A DNA stretch of 31,191 nt from NCBI GenBank assembly GCA_015494165.1, contig WGBS01000185.1, positions 1 to 31,191 of the forward strand. Direction: 5' to 3'. Positions 5,439-10,460 of this stretch are shown here, in pieces. The DNA is from Gammaproteobacteria bacterium (GTDB lineage Bacteria > Pseudomonadota > Gammaproteobacteria > S144-34). Made by a program: the position numbers and the translations under genes. The notes beneath the pieces are model-generated. The model saw only the letters and a list, made by a program, of their open reading frames with translations, was not told the DNA's origin and did no database searches. Numbering within the stretch: the stretch's first letter is position 1; each line of letters opens with the position of its first letter.

Positions 5439-6272
5439 GTGGCCGAAGACGGCACCGGCATCGACCCCTGCGCGCTCGTCGAGCCCGCGGTGGCGCTCGC
5501 GCGCGAGGCCGGCGAGCGCATCATGGCCATCTACGAAGGCGGCTTCAGCGTCGCCGAGAAGGCCGACCGCACCCCCCTCACCGAGGCCGACATGGCCGCC
5601 CACCGCACCATCGTCGAAGGCCTGCAGCGGCTGACTCCGGGACTGCCGGTGCTCTCGGAGGAGTCCGCTGAGATCCCCTTTGAGGAGCGCGCGCGCTGGC
5701 GCACCTACTGGCTCGTGGACCCGCTCGACGGCACCCGCGAGTTCATCAAGCGCAACGGCGAGTTCACCGTCAACATCGCCCTGGTGCGCGACCACGAGCC
5801 GGTGCTCGGGGTGGTGCACGCCCCCGCCCTGGGCCTGACCTACTGGGCCTGCCGCGGGGGCGGCGCCTGGAAGCAGGCCGGCAGCGAGGCGCCCCGGCGC
5901 ATCCGTGTGCGCCCCTTCCGGCCCGGCCGGGCAGTGGTCGCCGGCAGCCGCTCGCACAGCGACGAGCGCCTCGCCGCCTACTGCGAGCGTCTCGGGCCGC
6001 ACGAGCTCGTGAGCATGGGCTCGGCGCTCAAGTCCTGCCTGGTGGCCGAGGGGCGCGCGGATGTCTATCCCCGCTTCGGCCCCACCTCCGAGTGGGACAC
6101 CGCGGCGGCACAGTGCATCGTGGAGGAAGCGGGCGGCCATGTCGTCGACGCCGCCGGCCGGCCGCTGCGCTACAACACCAAGCCTTCGCTGCTGAACCCG
6201 GATTTCCTCGTCTGCGGCGATCCGGCCGGCGACTGGCTGCGGCCGGTGCGTGACGCCGTCCTCGAGCGCTGA
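5439..6272 (+). CDS. cysQ: 3'(2'),5'-bisphosphate nucleotidase CysQ
   Basis: KADRTPLTEAD, LSEES, WLVDPLDGTREFIKRNGEFTVNIAL, GSALK, EWDTAAAQ motifs; TACAAT -10-like hexamer at 5401-5406. Confidence 0.95.
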   Translation: MAEDGTGIDPCALVEPAVALAREAGERIMAIYEGGFSVAEKADRTPLTEADMAAHRTIVEGLQRLTPGLPVLSEESAEIPFEERARWRTYWLVDPLDGTREFIKRNGEFTVNIALVRDHEPVLGVVHAPALGLTYWACRGGGAWKQAGSEAPRRIRVRPFRPGRAVVAGSRSHSDERLAAYCERLGPHELVSMGSALKSCLVAEGRADVYPRFGPTSEWDTAAAQCIVEEAGGHVVDAAGRPLRYNTKPSLLNPDFLVCGDPAGDWLRPVRDAVLER

Positions 6273-6372
6273 GCCCGTGCCGGAGGCCGCCGGCGGTCCG
6301 TCCGGCGGCTCGCGAGCCCCGTCCGCGCCCGCCCGTGGCGCCGCCGCCGGCGCCCGTCGCTATGCTTTGGGT

Positions 6373-7551
6373 ATGCGCTCCTCAGGCACCCACCTCCGAC
6401 CCGCCATGCGCTTCCGCCCCGCCGGGCTGGAGCGGCGCTTCCGCCTGCACAGCGAGCGGCGCTTCCGCGGCACGCGCCGCCTCGCCCTGGGTGCGGGCAT
6501 CCTTCTCTACGTCCTCTTCGGCGCCCTCGACCGGGTGCTGTTCCCGGACGACCACGTGACGCTGTGGGCGACCCGCTACGGCTTCGGCCTCCCGCCGCTG
6601 CTCGCCGCCTTCGTCTACCTCATGCGCCCGGGCCCGCGGCGGAATGCCGAAGCGGTGCTCGCAGGTGCGGTGCTGGCCGCGGGGCTTTCCATCGTCGCCA
6701 TGATCGCGCTCGTGCCCGCCGCGCGCGAGATCTACTTCGCCGGCCTCATCCTCGTCTCCATGTTCGGCTACACGGTCTTCCGCCTGCGCTTCTGGCCGGC
6801 GACGGCGGTGAGCTGGCTCACGGTGGGCTGCTTCGAGGTCGTCGCCGCGCTCACGGACTACGCGCTGCGGTCGCTCGTGGCCGCCAACTTCTTCTACCTC
6901 GCGGGCAACGTGGTCGGGATGATGGCCTGCTACGCCCTCGACTGGGACGCGCGGCGCAACTTCCTGCTGCTGCGCACGCTGCGGCGCGAGCGCGCGCGCG
7001 TGGCGCGGCTCGCGCGCCACGACGCCCTCACGGGCCTGCTCGGGCGCCGTGCCTTCCTCGAGCAGCTCGAGTCCGAATGGGCGCGCTGCGCGCGCCTCGG
7101 GCTGCCGCTCGGCCTTCTCGCCGTGGACGTGGACCACTTCAAGCGCCTCAACGACAGCCTGGGTCACGCCGCCGGCGACGAATGCCTGCGCCGCGTGGCG
7201 CGCGCGCTCGAGGAAGCGACGCGGCGGCCCGGCGACGCCGCCGGGCGCCTCGGCGGCGAGGAGTTCGCGCTGCTGCTGCCGGGGGCCGCGCACGCGGACG
7301 CCCGCGCCATCGCCGAGTCCCTGCGCGCGCGCATCGAGGCCGAATGCATCCCGCACCCGGACTCGCCCGTCGGGCCCTGCATCACGGTGAGCGTCGGCGT
7401 CGCGACCGCCGAGCCCGCGGGCGCCGCGGGGCCCGGCTGCGAGGCGCTGCTGCGGCAGGCCGACCGCGCCCTCTACGCGGCCAAGCGCGGCGGGCGCAAC
7501 CGCGTCGTCGCCCTGCCGCCGCCTGGCCTCGCGCGCGACCGCAGCGCATGA
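6373..7551 (+). CDS. Membrane-anchored diguanylate cyclase (GGDEF domain)
   Basis: About 6 hydrophobic segments, then HDALTGL, DVDHFKRLNDSLGHAAGD, RPGD I-site, RLGGEEF, ADRALYAAK. Alternative start 6406. Confidence 0.9.
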   Translation: MRSSGTHLRPAMRFRPAGLERRFRLHSERRFRGTRRLALGAGILLYVLFGALDRVLFPDDHVTLWATRYGFGLPPLLAAFVYLMRPGPRRNAEAVLAGAVLAAGLSIVAMIALVPAAREIYFAGLILVSMFGYTVFRLRFWPATAVSWLTVGCFEVVAALTDYALRSLVAANFFYLAGNVVGMMACYALDWDARRNFLLLRTLRRERARVARLARHDALTGLLGRRAFLEQLESEWARCARLGLPLGLLAVDVDHFKRLNDSLGHAAGDECLRRVARALEEATRRPGDAAGRLGGEEFALLLPGAAHADARAIAESLRARIEAECIPHPDSPVGPCITVSVGVATAEPAGAAGPGCEALLRQADRALYAAKRGGRNRVVALPPPGLARDRSA

Positions 7552-7590
7552 GGCTTCGAGCTGCGCCGGCCGCGCGCAGGCGGGCACCCC

Positions 7591-7607
7591 TGTCAGAAAT
7601 CTTTACG
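7591..7607. promoter_or_regulatory. Candidate enhancer for a sigma54 activator
   Basis: AT-rich imperfect palindrome TGTCAGAAATCTTTACG about 75-90 bp upstream of the -24/-12 site. Confidence 0.4.
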
Positions 7608-7682
7608 GTTCCGGGTCCGAGCCGGGTCACGCCCGCCCACGGCTGGCCAAAAATCCGCTTCTGCTCAAAATCTTGCCGGACC

Positions 7683-7698
7683 GGGCACGCGCCTTGCT
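7683..7698 (+). promoter_or_regulatory. Sigma54 (-24/-12) promoter
   Basis: GGGCACG-CGCC-TTGCT against consensus TGGCACG-N4-TTGCW, with correct GG-N10-GC spacing. Confidence 0.75.
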
Positions 7699-7793
7699 GC
7701 CTTCGGATACCCCGGACAAGGCGCCGCGAGTGCTAGCCGCCGCACGCCAGCAGCGGCCCGGCGGGGGTGACCGAGCAGAGGAAGGAGCGCGCC

Positions 7794-8594
7794 ATGACGA
7801 CCATCACGTGCAGACTTGGACCCCAACGATTCGTCCGAACCCTCTCGCTGGCAGCCGCGGCTTGCGCCGCCCTCGCGGGCTTTCCGAAAGCGCTCCCGGC
7901 AGCCCCCGTCTACACCTACTCGTTCGAGGCGACGCTCTCCGAGGCGCCCTTGGACCTCCTCGGTGCCGCGGCCTCGGAAGGCATCAGCCTCGGCAGCGTG
8001 AGCGGGACCTTCTCGGTCGACGCGGCCGCCCCCGAGAACCCTGCCACCGCGGGCGACCCCGTGCACGGCTCCTATCCCGGCGCGGTGCCGTCGTTCTCGA
8101 TCGAGATCGACTCGGCCACGGCCTCGGGCACCGGGCTCGACGTCAGCGTGACGGACGTCGGGACGCCGCCTCCCGGCGACACGCTCTTCATCGCGGGAGG
8201 CGTGACGGGGATCGACCTCGCCGGCCTCTTTTCGCTCTCGGAGATCTTACTCGGGCTGACCGACAGCGCCGCGGCCGCCTATGCGAGCGACGGCCCCCCG
8301 GCACCCCTGCCGGACCTTGCGCAATTCTTCGACGACGCCGGAGACGTGCATCGCATCAGCCTGGGCTTCGCCGACCTCCTGTCCGACACGGATCCCTTCG
8401 ACTTCTCGGTCGGCCTGACGGTCGTCTACGCCATCTACACCATCGACAGCCTGGTGCCCGTGGAGGTGACGGGTGGACCGGGCGGCGCGGTCCCGGCCCC
8501 CGCCCCGGCGTGGCTCGTCCTATCCGGCCTCGCCGGCCTCCTCGCCGCCCGCCGGCGTTCAGCTGCCCTTTCCGGCAAAAAATGGGGGCACTAA
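7794..8594 (+). CDS. PEP-CTERM/VPLPA-CTERM-like surface protein (exosortase substrate)
   Basis: Signal peptide, low-complexity acidic Ser/Thr/Gly/Asp-rich body, C-terminal VPAPAP + hydrophobic helix + RRR; RBS GAAGGAG before ATG 7794. Confidence 0.8.
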   Translation: MTTITCRLGPQRFVRTLSLAAAACAALAGFPKALPAAPVYTYSFEATLSEAPLDLLGAAASEGISLGSVSGTFSVDAAAPENPATAGDPVHGSYPGAVPSFSIEIDSATASGTGLDVSVTDVGTPPPGDTLFIAGGVTGIDLAGLFSLSEILLGLTDSAAAAYASDGPPAPLPDLAQFFDDAGDVHRISLGFADLLSDTDPFDFSVGLTVVYAIYTIDSLVPVEVTGGPGGAVPAPAPAWLVLSGLAGLLAARRRSAALSGKKWGH

Positions 8595-8599
8595 GGTAG

Positions 8600-9180
8600 G
8601 CGCAGACCGGCCTGCCAAGGGCTGGAGGCGGGAAGGAGACCACTGCACCACATCCGGCATCTGTCGGTGGCGTCTTCGCTGCGATGCCGGGACGTGAAGG
8701 TATCCGCCGGCAGGGGCCGAATCTGAAAAGCGAGCTCGTCGCCCGAGGGCTTCCACGGGTTGCCCTGCCGCGGGCCAGCCGACCTGTTTCGCCTTCAGCC
8801 CGCTGGCGCGATCATGAACGCAGGCTATGCGCCTGTCCTGTGCGGTGCCGGTGCTGCCTCCTTCGCTCGTGCGACACAGGCCGTCTGCGCTCGCCACGGC
8901 TCGCCGCGACGTGGCACCGCCTAGGTCTGGCAGGCGAGCTTGTTGGCCAGCGCCACGGCCACCACCTTGGGCCGGGGTCGGCGCACGAGGCGTTCGGCCC
9001 AGGGTCGGGCGCTCGGCCGAGCGGCGGCATGTGCCGGCGCACGTGCTGCAGCCGCGGTCGGGCATCGAGCACCAGCAACCGGCACAGGTAGCCATTGCCG
9101 CGCTTGCTGATACGCCTGAGCCGCTGGCGCTCGCCCAAGCTGTGCTCCCCAGGCCGCCGCCAGGGGTTACCATCTGCCGG
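8600..9180 (-). mobile_element. IS110-family (IS1111-type) remnant: degraded transposase C-terminus plus 3' non-coding end
   Basis: Minus-strand fragments EHS.G.RQRL.RISKRGNGYL.RLLV and WAERLVRRPRPKVVAVALANKLA..*AV.RRGEP, with frameshifts and a TAG at the usual Trp position; the N-terminal part is absent. Confidence 0.8.
8630..8800 (-). ncRNA. Putative bridge/seek RNA-like region of the IS1111-type remnant
   Basis: Lies downstream of the transposase remnant; perfect 8-bp stems 8654-8661/8683-8690 and 8708-8715/8763-8770; GCGAAACAGGTCGG...CAACCCG...GCGGATACC...GCCGGATG layout resembles IS1111-type 3' ends as I recall them. Confidence 0.5.
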
Positions 9181-9213
9181 ACGCAAGCCGGGGAGGCTGC
9201 GGGCGCGGAGGAC

Positions 9214-9861
9214 ATGGCCAGACGGCTGAAGGGGGCGGAACGCCGCCGGCTCATCCTGCAGAGGGCCAAGCGCCTGTTCGCGCGCAGGGGCTACGGGGGC
9301 GTGTCCATGGACGAGCTCGCGGCGGCCTGCGGCGTCAGCCCGGCCGTGATCTATCGGCACTTTCCTTCCAAGGAGGCCCTCTACCGGGAGGTGCTGCATA
9401 CCTTCGCCTGCGCGCGCGAGGACTACCTGGCCGCCCTGCTCGAAGGCCCCGACGACTTCGCGGAGACGCTCCGACGCCTCACGCTGGCCTACCTGCGCGC
9501 CCGCCTCCGGGACCGCGACACGCTGCGCATGGAGCTGCGCAGCATCGCCGACCAGGACCGCGTCCGCCGCGCGATCTACGAAAGCCAGTGGGCGGGCCTG
9601 GCCGGCTACGTCGAGGACGTGCTGCGCGAGCGCGCCGGCGGCGACGGCCGGCGCGCGGCGGAGATGGCACGCCTTGCGGCGCTCGCCTATGTCGGCATGG
9701 TGCGCGAGGCGCTGATCCGGCTCGGCCTGAAAGCCGCTCCGGCGGAGACCGGCGAGGAGGGGCTCGAGGGGCTCAGCCGCGATCTCGTCACCATCTTCCT
9801 GGAGGGGGTCGCCGGGGCGATGCGGCGCTCATCCGGCCCCCGCGTCCAAGACCAGGCGTAG
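9214..9861 (+). CDS. TetR/AcrR-family transcriptional regulator
   Basis: ERRRLILQRAKRLFARRGYGGVSMDELAAACGVSPAVIYRHFPSKEALY HTH; RBS GGAGGA before ATG 9214. Confidence 0.92.
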   Translation: MARRLKGAERRRLILQRAKRLFARRGYGGVSMDELAAACGVSPAVIYRHFPSKEALYREVLHTFACAREDYLAALLEGPDDFAETLRRLTLAYLRARLRDRDTLRMELRSIADQDRVRRAIYESQWAGLAGYVEDVLRERAGGDGRRAAEMARLAALAYVGMVREALIRLGLKAAPAETGEEGLEGLSRDLVTIFLEGVAGAMRRSSGPRVQDQA

Positions 9862-10460
9862 ACCCTCGCCCCGCCCTTCCCAGTAGGCGAGCTTGACCCA
9901 CAGCAGCGCCGCCGCCTCCAGGCAGAGCGCGTTCTCGAGCCTTCCGCAATCGACGGGGAGGAATCCGCAACGGGCGGCGAGCGTCATCACCCGGGCCCTG
10001 GCCTCGTCCGAATCGCCGCAGCACCAGACCTGCCTCACGGGCGGCCCGTGCACCGGACCGTCGATCAGCTCCGCCTTCAGCCCGTTGAAGGCCTTGACCA
10101 CCTCGACTCCGCCAGCCGCGGCCGCGATGCGCTCGGCACCGGAGAGCCCGCCCTCGCCCACGTCCAGCCGGCTCCAGTCACCGGATTGGTCGCATCCGCC
10201 AGGACCCTGCCGGCCAGCACCGGCCGGAGCCGCGCGGTCGTCTCCACCGCGACGCGCCACGGGACGGCCAGCACGATGAGCCCGGACGCGCGGCAGGCGT
10301 CCTCATAGGGCATGACGTCGCCTCCGTGCACCGCCCGGACCTGCGGCGTGTCGTGCCGGCGTGAGCCCACCGCCACCCGGAGGCCCGCCCGCCGCATGCG
10401 CCCGGCGAGCGCCGAGCCGAGCTTGCCCGCTCCGAGCACCGAGACGTCGTAGGCGATCAC
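9829..10460 (-). pseudogene. NADP oxidoreductase (F420-dependent NADP reductase-like), frameshifted
   Basis: GAGKLG Rossmann motif, VLAVPW and DATNP in one frame; SGAERIA, VVKAFN, CGD and ENALCLE in another; frame switch at about 10177-10184. Confidence 0.8.

What the first reader, a model, noticed from the sequence alone, without database searches (positions are those of the whole stretch)
8600..9180. Dead IS1111-type transposase with an apparently preserved bridge/seek RNA-like 3' region
Seen: the transposase C-terminus is truncated, frameshifted and carries a nonsense codon, yet the downstream non-coding region keeps two perfect 8-bp stems (8708-8715/8763-8770 and 8654-8661/8683-8690) enclosing A/T-richer loops. 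Established: IS110-family elements use a structured non-coding RNA to specify target and donor DNA, and in the IS1111 group it is typically encoded 3' of the transposase. Inference: this is a relic or orphan guide RNA that could still program an intact IS110 recombinase in trans or have been co-opted. The ORF track does not reveal this element.
Basis: partly seen in the sequence, partly recalled or inferred. Interest (0 to 1): 0.7.

Follow-up and report, generated by a model that had tools for sequence, protein, structure and literature searches.

The report
Decayed IS1111 relic with bridge-RNA gene
This is the broken tail end of an IS1111-type jumping gene that still carries a recognisable but partly ruined copy of the guide RNA such elements use to pick their landing site; it is an ordinary genomic fossil, not a working or co-opted guide.

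Summary
Window 9153-8591 (minus strand) is the last 39% of a 1.45-kb IS1111-group insertion sequence. It holds about 92 C-terminal transposase codons and the about 285-nt 3' non-coding region. The coding part has a 1-nt frameshift, an in-frame TAG and a mutated stop codon.

Intact relatives from metagenomes (transposase P0005, 76% identical to the relic) have 13-bp subterminal inverted repeats. They insert into a hairpin that ends a repeat of about 165 nt, abundant in this genus.

A covariance model built from the intact 3' regions finds the same structured RNA 3' of the transposase gene in about 40 distant relatives, with strong covariation. Four loop segments track each element's own left flank, right flank, left end and right end. 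So this is the family's bridge/seek RNA.

Stem 2 is a window-specific pairing. The window's target guides are intact and match 32 of 35 exact hairpin sites in its own genome. However, one donor guide has lost 3 nt and the right-end repeat is 8/13. The RNA region as a whole has decayed as fast as the pseudogene. No cognate transposase or promoter was found.

Verdict: a real, correctly identified relic, probably non-functional.

The parts
9028..9153 (-). Transposase relic, piece 1 (aa 256-297 of intact relative P0005). It includes the 'RISKRGNGYL' part of the Transposase_20 domain. The conserved GL-P----S(T)G motif reads ...PGEHSLG.
   Evidence: tblastn 76% identity, E 3.5e-22; alignment to L057; translation
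9028..9029 (-). Frameshift: one base is missing between 9029 and 9028 relative to all intact copies (CACAT-GCC against CACATGGCC).
   Evidence: alignment
8879..9004 (-). Transposase relic, piece 2 (aa 306-347 of P0005), in the second frame.
   Evidence: tblastn 76% identity
8921..8923 (-). In-frame TAG that replaces the TGG (Trp) of the conserved ...ANKLARQAWAV...
8876..8878 (-). Position of the ancestral stop codon (TGA in L057 and L059), mutated to TGT in the window.
   Evidence: alignment
8814..8875 (-). Variable spacer between the coding sequence and the RNA. It is also poorly conserved and rich in indels among intact copies.
8591..8813 (-). Bridge/seek-RNA gene relic: a full-length match (model positions 1-220) to covariance model R1, which was built from intact relatives.
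   Evidence: 143 bits, E 1e-43 to 1e-45, against 246-264 bits for intact or young copies
8763..8773 (-). 5' arm (CCGCGGCAGGG) of the helix that closes the target-binding loop.
   Evidence: helices 5/6 (helix 6: 97% paired, 7/7 pairs with compensatory changes)
8746..8754 (-). Target guide T (GGAAGCCCT). It is the reverse complement of AG+GGCTTCC, that is, the right half of the host hairpin site.
   Evidence: The guide tracks the right flank in L056 (11/11), L090 (10/11), L057 (9/11), L091 and L104. It matches 32 of 35 exact sites in G000.
8731..8745 (-). Distal hairpin inside the target loop (CGGGC-GACGA-GCTCG).
   Evidence: helix 8 (89% paired, 4/5 pairs with double changes)
8721..8729 (-). 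Target guide B (TTTTCAGAT). It equals the left half of the site (TTTTCAG) plus the first bases of the left end (AT).
   Evidence: Left flanks and left ends of intact copies. B tracks the left flank in L076 (12 nt), L109 (10), L094, L065 and L091.
8704..8715 (-). 3' arm (CCCTGCCGGCGG) of the closing helix.
8697..8703 (-). Candidate donor guide for the left end (ATACCTT; compare the reverse complement of the left end ATGGTAT = ATACCAT). It is retained in the window.
   Evidence: Family-wide match of this segment to the reverse complement of each element's own left end: L091 TCCCAT, L094 TGCCAT and L102 TGTCAT are 6/6. This is inference by covariation.
8669..8688 (-). Conserved hairpin of the donor half (GGCACC/GGTGCC in intact copies). 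The window has GGCATC...GACGCC: one compensatory change and one broken pair.
   Evidence: helix 10 (98% paired, 5/6 pairs with double changes)
8654..8690 (-). It is perfect only in the window. Two window-specific substitutions create it, and it competes with the conserved hairpin.
8646..8655 (-). Remnant of the donor guide for the right end. Intact copies read GGATGTAAG (matching the right end CCATGTAAG). The window reads GGATGTGGTG, 3 nt shorter than the intact sequence, with the AAG lost.
   Evidence: Guide and right end co-vary across the family: GTAA, ATAA, ACAA, GTAG, AGAT.
8591..8608 (-). Degenerate right end: GGTCTGCGCCTAC+CTTAG against the intact subterminal inverted repeat GGGCGGCGTCCAT+GTAAG (8/13 in the repeat, 13/20 in the last 20 nt). 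The flank beyond it (TGCCCCC) is not the predicted target half GGCTTCC.

Best explanation
The feature is a neutrally decaying 3' fragment (about 563 of 1,453 bp) of an IS1111-group insertion sequence.

How the intact element works. A DEDD transposase of about 347 aa is followed by an RNA of about 220 nt, closed by a long-range helix.
- The first half of the RNA is a stem that encloses a loop with two guides. Guide T pairs with the top strand of the right half-site. Guide B pairs with the bottom strand of the left half-site plus the start of the element.
- The second half carries two segments that match the element's own left and right termini (donor recognition).
- The element inserts, without a target duplication, at TTTTTCAG^(G/A)GCTTCC. 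This site lies in the 3' arm of a palindromic hairpin that ends a repeat of about 165 nt, abundant in this genus.

What the window has kept: the last about 92 transposase codons (frameshift, TAG, lost stop) and the whole RNA gene. The target-loop scaffold and both target guides are intact and tuned to the host's own hairpin variant.

What the window has lost: one donor guide is 3 nt short, the right-end inverted repeat is degenerate, and the left end, promoter region and transposase are gone.

Shown: the homology, the conserved covarying structure, the guide-to-flank and guide-to-end correspondence, and the decay pattern. Inferred: that the RNA is no longer made or used.
For: - Relic against intact element L057: 83% identity over element positions 885-1432, colinear to the right end.
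- Intact relatives P0003, P0004 and P0005 carry PF01548+PF02371 and are 346-353 aa.
- A 13-bp subterminal inverted repeat and precise ends are seen in 5 intact copies.
- Target hairpin and repeat consensus.
- Covariance model R1 hits 3' of the transposase gene in about 40 relatives that share 41-56% transposase identity.
- Covariation: 88% of cells paired, 51 of 58 pairs with changes on both sides, score 0.437 against at most 0.056 for slid controls.
- Guides track flanks and ends.
- Host-specific match: the G000 sites are 32/35 GGCTTCC and the window guide has C. The G001 sites are mostly AGCTTCC and the G001 copies have T.
- Decay at sites invariant in intact copies: CDS 12.5%, target loop 6.8% (not different from the CDS, p=0.26), donor loop 21%, right end 37%.
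- Window score 143 bits against 246-264.
- No second copy, no left end and no cognate transposase in G000.
- No promoter-like site.
Against: - The target-binding half is nearly intact (4 substitutions in 59 invariant sites) and is significantly better kept than the 3' half (p=0.008). This could hint at retention, though it does not differ from the pseudogene rate.
- G000 is a 333-contig MAG, so a multi-copy intact IS could have been left out of the assembly or the bin.
- Expression was not tested. The promoter scan covers only sigma-70 consensus sites.
- Published work reports that a short seekRNA carrying only the target matches sufficed for ISEc11 (PMC11187229). Loss of the donor guide may therefore not abolish all activity.
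Confidence: 0.85

Rival explanations
1. Orphan guide that is still usable. The relic RNA is transcribed and can load onto a cognate IS1111-type transposase supplied in trans, either by an unassembled copy or by an incoming element. It would then direct that transposase to the host's hairpin repeats.
For: - The closing helix, distal hairpin and both target guides are intact.
- The guides match 32 exact sites in G000.
- The NCR works in trans for ISEc11, and a short seekRNA is sufficient there (PMC11187229).
- The MAG is fragmented.
Against: - No cognate transposase or second copy in G000.
- The only intact IS110-family gene is 34% identical and has no related RNA.
- The donor guide is 3 nt shorter with its AAG lost, several helices of the donor half are broken, and the score is halved.
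- No promoter-like site was found, and the natural promoter sources (the left end or the circle junction) are gone.
- Any incoming intact element brings its own RNA.
Confidence: 0.07
2. Co-option. Part of the relic has been kept for a host function. One version is that it supplies the 3' end of the upstream ORF. Another is that the target-loop half acts as an RNA that pairs with hairpin-repeat transcripts or DNA.
For: - The TAA stop (8592-8594) of ORF 7767-8594 lies inside the last bases of the element's right end.
- The target-loop half is better kept than the 3' half (p=0.008).
Against: - Supplying a stop codon needs no RNA structure.
- The target loop's substitution rate does not differ from that of the adjacent pseudogene (p=0.26).
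- The locus is unique to G000 among the three genomes of the genus, so there is no conservation to point to.
- There is no promoter or terminator signal.
Confidence: 0.05
3. Chance stems in G+C-rich intergenic DNA, unrelated to any mobile element.
For: Two perfect 8-bp inverted repeats are within the chance expectation for this composition (84 of 500 shuffles). Rfam and Pfam give no hit on the relic itself.
Against: There is 83% nucleotide identity over 555 nt to an intact IS. The region gives a full-length 143-bit hit to a model built without it.
Confidence: 0.01

Closest known systems
IS1111-group insertion sequences with a 3' seekRNA (ISEc11, ISKpn4, ISPa11, ISPst6; Siddiquee et al. 2024, PMC11187229)
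   Same: - Transposase of 346-353 aa with a GL-P----SG motif.
- Subterminal inverted repeats.
- A long non-coding region 3' of the transposase gene.
- Site- and orientation-specific insertion without duplication.
- A stem-loop RNA whose 5' segment complements the top strand of the target and whose 3' segment complements the bottom strand, with the two matches overlapping at the insertion point.
   Different: - A new element and a new target: a hairpin at the end of a genus-specific repeat of about 165 nt.
- Transposase only about 38% identical to the named member IS4321.
- The window copy is a 5'-truncated, mutated relic.
IS621/IS110-group bridge RNA (Durrant et al. 2024, PMC11208160)
   Same: - A two-part RNA with separate target-matching and donor-matching segments.
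- Guides that co-vary with the flanks and with the element's ends.
- That paper also predicts right-end-encoded bridge RNAs in 93% of IS1111 elements.
   Different: - Here the RNA lies 3' of the recombinase gene, and the order of the guides is reversed.
- The subterminal repeats are 13 bp rather than 2-3 bp.
- The donor-matching segments flank the conserved hairpin of the donor half. I did not establish whether they sit inside an internal loop, as they do in IS621.
ISPpu9 and its ssr9 module in Pseudomonas putida (PMC12288879)
   Same: - An IS110-family element that inserts into REP-type palindromes.
- Sub-modules and solo fragments bounded by repeated end-like boxes occur in the genome, as in the sister genome G001: a solo 130-nt right-end fragment and internally deleted copies.
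   Different: - ISPpu9 belongs to the IS110 group.
- Ssr9 is not required for its transposition and is not a bridge RNA.
- In the window there is only a single dead fragment.

Membership tests
IS1111 group of the IS110 family | DEDD transposase with PF01548 (N-terminal) and PF02371 (C-terminal) domains, about 330-350 aa | tested here: met
   Intact relatives are 346-353 aa and carry both domains. The window keeps only aa 256-347, at 76% identity to P0005. Pfam does not score the relic pieces on their own.
IS1111 group of the IS110 family | Subterminal inverted repeats of 7-17 bp | tested here: met
   A 13-bp repeat, ATGGACGCCGCCC / GGGCGGCGTCCAT, lies 5 bp in from each end in L056, L057, L058, L059 and L090. 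The window's right-end copy is degenerate (8/13) and its left end is absent.
IS1111 group of the IS110 family | The long non-coding region lies downstream of the transposase gene | tested here: met
   The region is 294 nt in L057 (1481-1774), against about 115 nt upstream. The window is colinear with it.
IS1111 group of the IS110 family | Sequence-specific, orientation-specific insertion with no target-site duplication | tested here: met
   The flanks TTTTTCAG|...|(A/G)GCTTCC rebuild the uninterrupted hairpin site of the host repeat. For the window's own copy the right flank (TGCCCCC) does not fit, and the left junction is lost.
IS1111 group of the IS110 family | The transposase clusters with IS1111-type rather than IS110-type proteins | tested here: inconclusive
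   P0005 aligns with IS4321-family transposases at 38% identity, E 1e-41. It aligns with the genome's other IS110-family gene at 34%, E 3e-25. No tree was built.
Bridge RNA / seekRNA | A structured RNA conserved next to the recombinase gene, with covariation | tested here: met
   Model R1 hits 3' of the transposase gene in about 40 relatives. 88% of cells are paired, 51 of 58 pairs change on both sides, and slid controls are far lower. Caveat: the alignment was fitted to the model.
Bridge RNA / seekRNA | Loop segments complementary to both strands of the target, changing with the target | tested here: met
   T against the right flank: L056 11/11, L090 10/11, L057 9/11, L091 9, L104 9. B against the left flank: L076 12, L109 10, L094 8. 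The window's guides match the host site variant.
Bridge RNA / seekRNA | Segments complementary to the element's own ends (donor recognition) | tested here: met
   Five distinct right-end types are matched by the guide (GTAA, ATAA, ACAA, GTAG, AGAT). Left-end triplets are matched in L091, L094, L102 and the window's clade. In the window the right-end guide is 3 nt shorter, with its AAG lost.
Bridge RNA / seekRNA | The RNA is expressed and bound by the recombinase | not testable with these tools
   There are no expression data. No sigma-70-like promoter was found in 8450-9350.
   Window-specific substitutions are 28/187 (15%) over the RNA against 30/240 (12.5%) in the pseudogene. Only the target-loop half is lower (6.8%), and that difference is not significant.
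   tblastn finds only the relic and a 34%-identical gene on C55, which has no R1-type RNA. Caveat: the MAG has 333 contigs.

The most novel reading that the evidence does not exclude
The target-binding half of the relic RNA (about 8775-8704) has been kept on purpose. It has 4 changes in 59 invariant sites, against 23 in 96 for the 3' half. Its guides match 32 hairpin-repeat sites of its own genome exactly. A 'half bridge RNA' of this kind, lacking donor recognition, could act as a decoy. It might occupy target hairpins, or titrate an incoming cognate transposase without allowing integration, giving a form of immunity derived from the element itself.
Probability: 0.04. Interest if true: 0.7.

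Novelty: new member of a known kind. Interest (0 to 1): 0.3.

Why it matters
The relic itself is an expected by-product of IS decay and changes little.

Following it up gave three things of some value:
- A previously undescribed IS1111-group element, with its ends, target and RNA defined.
- A natural example of guide retuning. A one-base difference in the target guide tracks the G/A variant of the hairpin repeat that predominates in each host species.
- Comparative evidence that IS1111-type RNAs carry segments matching both element ends as well as the target. This bears on the open question of how this group recognises its donor.

The relic also marks a locus where a pstS...pstB-phoU operon found in a sister species has been replaced.

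Tried and rejected
- Rfam at E up to 10 over 7500-10000 gave only noise.
- Pfam on the relic's translated pieces gave no hit. The PF02371 scan of the genome missed the relic.
- tblastn of the 46-aa piece against plasmids gave nothing.
- blastn against plasmids gave only 43-55-nt matches in Microvirga and Rhizobium IS110 genes. These were useful only as a first protein reference.
- A search of 58 other genomes of the class found no related DNA.
- No intact transposase of this type is present in sister genomes G001 and G002. G001 holds only fragments at contig ends and deletion derivatives.
- A single-sequence fold of the window RNA is no better than shuffles (z = -0.40), and the L057 RNA is only slightly better (z = -1.48). 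Thermodynamics alone would not have shown the structure.
- Model R1 finds nothing next to the genome's other IS110-family gene.
- The promoter and terminator scan was empty.
- No orthologue of ORF 7767-8594 exists in G001 or G002, so an ancestral empty site could not be reconstructed.
- Considered and rejected: that the window element is a variant with different ends and a co-varying donor guide. Its donor-guide remnant (GGATGTGGTG) does not match its own right end (CCTACCTTAG).
- An earlier-findings look-up returned nothing.

Full report
**What is in the sequence**

On the minus strand, window 9153-9028 and 9004-8879 translate in two different frames to the last third of an IS110-family transposase. 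The closest intact relative is P0005 (347 aa, PF01548+PF02371). It matches these two pieces at 76% identity, covering aa 256-297 and 306-347.

Relative to every intact copy:
- The window lacks one base between 9029 and 9028, which causes the frameshift.
- It has TAG (8923-8921) where the others have the Trp codon of 'QAWAV'.
- Its original stop has mutated from TGA to TGT (8878-8876).

The first 884 bp of the element are missing. These would hold the left end and about 255 codons. The break at about 9147-9150 coincides with the point where synteny with sister genome G002 begins, at 97.6% identity on the TetR side.

**The two stems**

Both perfect 8-bp inverted repeats are at the stated coordinates. 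Two such repeats in 330 nt of this composition are not unusual: shuffles give a mean of 0.71, and 17% of them reach 2 or more. Single-sequence folding is no better than shuffles (z = -0.40). The stems alone are not evidence.

**Finding intact relatives**

The genome is G000, a 2.48-Mb MAG in 333 contigs. It holds no second copy and only an unrelated IS110-family gene on C55.

Sister genome G001 holds several copies of the 3' region. Most lie at contig ends. There is also an internally deleted copy that keeps the first 32 codons. Using that N-terminus as a query recovered full-length proteins P0003, P0004 and P0005 and their contigs L056-L059. A metagenome scan added L090, and about 110 further relatives at 41-64% identity came from genome and metagenome scans.

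**Anatomy of the intact element**

- L057 carries a 1,453-bp element, ATGGT-ATGGACGCCGCCC ... GGGCGGCGTCCAT-GTAAG. This means 13-bp inverted repeats set 5 bp in from each end.
- The non-coding region 3' of the transposase gene is 294 nt.
- The flanks are TTTTTCAG| on the left and |(A/G)GCTTCC on the right. Joined, they rebuild the 3' arm of a palindrome, GGAAGC(C/T)CTGAAAAAT-CGA-ATTTTTCAG(G/A)GCTTCC.
- This palindrome ends a repeat of about 165 nt that gives 82-96 matches in each of the three genomes of the genus.

These are the defining features of the IS1111 group as described in PMC11187229 and PMC11208160.

**The 3' region encodes the family's guide RNA**

The window is colinear with the intact 3' region all the way to the right end. 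I built covariance model R1 from four intact copies, without the window.
- R1 scores the window at 143 bits over its full length.
- It scores a second relic in G001, which was not in the training set, at 246 bits.
- It scores its four training copies at 253-264 bits.
- It finds a match immediately 3' of the transposase gene in about 40 distant relatives.

On the resulting alignment, 88% of cells are paired. 51 of 58 pairs show changes on both sides. The covariation score is 0.437, against at most 0.056 when the partners are slid. One caveat applies: the alignment was fitted to the model.

The RNA is closed by a long-range helix and has two halves.

**Guides**

In the first half, a helix closes a loop that contains a small hairpin flanked by two segments. 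The window's arms of this helix are 8773-8763 and 8715-8704.
- The 5' segment equals the reverse complement of the right flank plus the terminal AG. The match is 11/11 in L056, 10/11 in L090, 9/11 in L057, and 9 nt in L091 and L104.
- The 3' segment equals the left flank plus the first bases of the element. The match is 12 nt in L076, 10 in L109 and 8 in L094.

This is the order reported for IS1111 seekRNAs: the top-strand complement comes first (PMC11187229).

In the second half there are two further segments.
- One follows each element's right end. The five types GTAA, ATAA, ACAA, GTAG and AGAT are all matched.
- The other follows the reverse complement of each left end: TCCCAT, TGCCAT and TGTCAT at 6/6, and the window's clade at 5/6.

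I read these as donor guides. That reading is an inference from covariation.

**State of the window's copy**

- The closing helix, the distal hairpin and both target guides (GGAAGCCCT at 8754-8746; TTTTCAGAT at 8729-8721) are intact.
- The guides specify TTTTCAG|GGCTTCC. Of the 35 exact 16-mer sites in G000, 32 have this G variant. In G001 most sites have A, and the G001 copies carry the matching T in the guide. The element was therefore tuned to this host lineage.
- The right-end donor guide is 3 nt shorter than in intact copies (GGATGTAAG has become GGATGTG..), with its AAG lost.
- Several pairs in the donor half are broken.
- The right-end repeat is 8/13.
- The flank beyond the right end (TGCCCCC) is not the predicted half-site.

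**Preserved or decaying?**

I counted window-specific substitutions at sites invariant among four intact copies.

| Region | Substitutions | Rate |
|---|---|---|
| Pseudogene (CDS relic) | 30/240 | 12.5% |
| Target-loop half | 4/59 | 6.8% |
| Donor half | 12/56 | 21% |
| Distal part | 4/21 | 19% |
| Right end | 7/19 | 37% |
| Whole RNA | 28/187 | 15% |

The target loop does not differ from the pseudogene (p=0.26). The 3' half is worse than both (p about 0.01). Among intact copies, the donor half and the right end are the best conserved parts, at 90-100%. Their decay in the window therefore signals loss of constraint.

The RNA has diverged as much as the CDS, and one guide is destroyed. Expression could not be tested, and no promoter-like site was found. 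The only other IS110-family protein in the genome is 34% identical and has no related RNA.

**Context**

In G002, the GGDEF gene (window 6250-7551) is followed by phoU and pstB, and the TetR gene (window 9214-9861) is preceded by pstS. In G000 this interval holds only ORF 7767-8594 and the relic. ORF 7767-8594 has no Pfam hit and no orthologue in the sister genomes. G000 keeps a pstB-phoU copy that is only 70-75% identical, on another contig. The relic thus sits at a replacement or deletion junction. The stop codon of ORF 7767-8594 lies within the last bases of the element.

**Verdict**

The RNA gene is a recognisable, half-intact fossil of a known kind of system. There is no evidence that it is maintained, expressed or paired with a recombinase.

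Noticed in passing
G000 genome-wide (e.g. C28:1716-1868, C193:6247-6404); G001 L009:1161-1307; none in the window: A repeat of about 165 nt gives 82-96 matches in each of the three genomes of the genus. It starts with a 19-bp-stem hairpin (CTCTGATCAATCCGC...GCGGATTGATCAG) and ends with a second palindrome, GGAAGCCCTGAAAAAT-CGA-ATTTTTCAGGGCTTCC. That second palindrome is the insertion site of the IS. The G/A variant at the site is species-specific: G000 32/35 G, G002 29/31 G, G001 about 37/48 A.
   Followed up: partly
G001 C69 (L009:1308-1724), G001 C53 (L042:1656-1950), protein P0001 from another sample: An internally deleted mini-element. The left end and the first 32 transposase codons are fused in frame-shifted fashion to the last about 45 codons, followed by the RNA gene. 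The same deletion junction occurs at two or more loci and in a separate metagenome. This suggests a non-autonomous derivative that carries its own guide RNA and is moved in trans.
   Followed up: partly
G001 C140 (L010:112-309): A solo 130-nt right-end fragment that begins exactly at the B guide (TTCAG|ATTCGGG). It is preceded by a shortened hairpin repeat and followed by the normal right flank. It looks like a deletion between the left junction and the internal guide DNA that mimics that junction. This recalls the A'/B' boxes of ISPpu9.
   Followed up: no
window 7552-9213, compared with G002 C65 (L170:1-1500) and C150 (L005:1569-2854): In G002, pstS and pstB-phoU lie between the GGDEF gene and the TetR gene; the stretch between them lies beyond the contig ends, so a whole pstSCAB-phoU operon there is inferred, not seen. 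In G000 this interval is replaced by an orphan ORF and the IS relic. G000 keeps only a pstB-phoU copy that is 70-75% identical, on C116.
   Followed up: partly
window 7767-8594 (+): An orphan 275-aa ORF with an N-terminal signal-like segment and a C-terminal hydrophobic stretch followed by RRR (PEP-CTERM-like by eye). It has no Pfam hit and no orthologue in G001 or G002. Its TAA stop (8592-8594) lies inside the terminal bases of the IS right end.
   Followed up: partly
L057:426-438, L056:378-390, L059:868-880, L090:990-1002: A third, imperfect copy of the terminal inverted repeat (GGGCGACGTCCAT) overlaps the transposase start codon in every intact element, about 100 nt inside the left end. It might be a binding or regulatory site, or an alternative end.
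   Followed up: no
G001 C21 (L004:1222-1846): A second, independent relic of the same IS. Its coding part is cut by an IS630-like transposase fragment on the opposite strand and its right end is truncated, yet its RNA region still scores 246 bits.
   Followed up: partly
G000 C55 (L003:1324-2373, minus strand): An intact 349-aa IS110-family transposase gene, with an orthologue in G002 C368. It is unrelated to the relic's subfamily (34% identity) and has no R1-type RNA nearby.
   Followed up: partly
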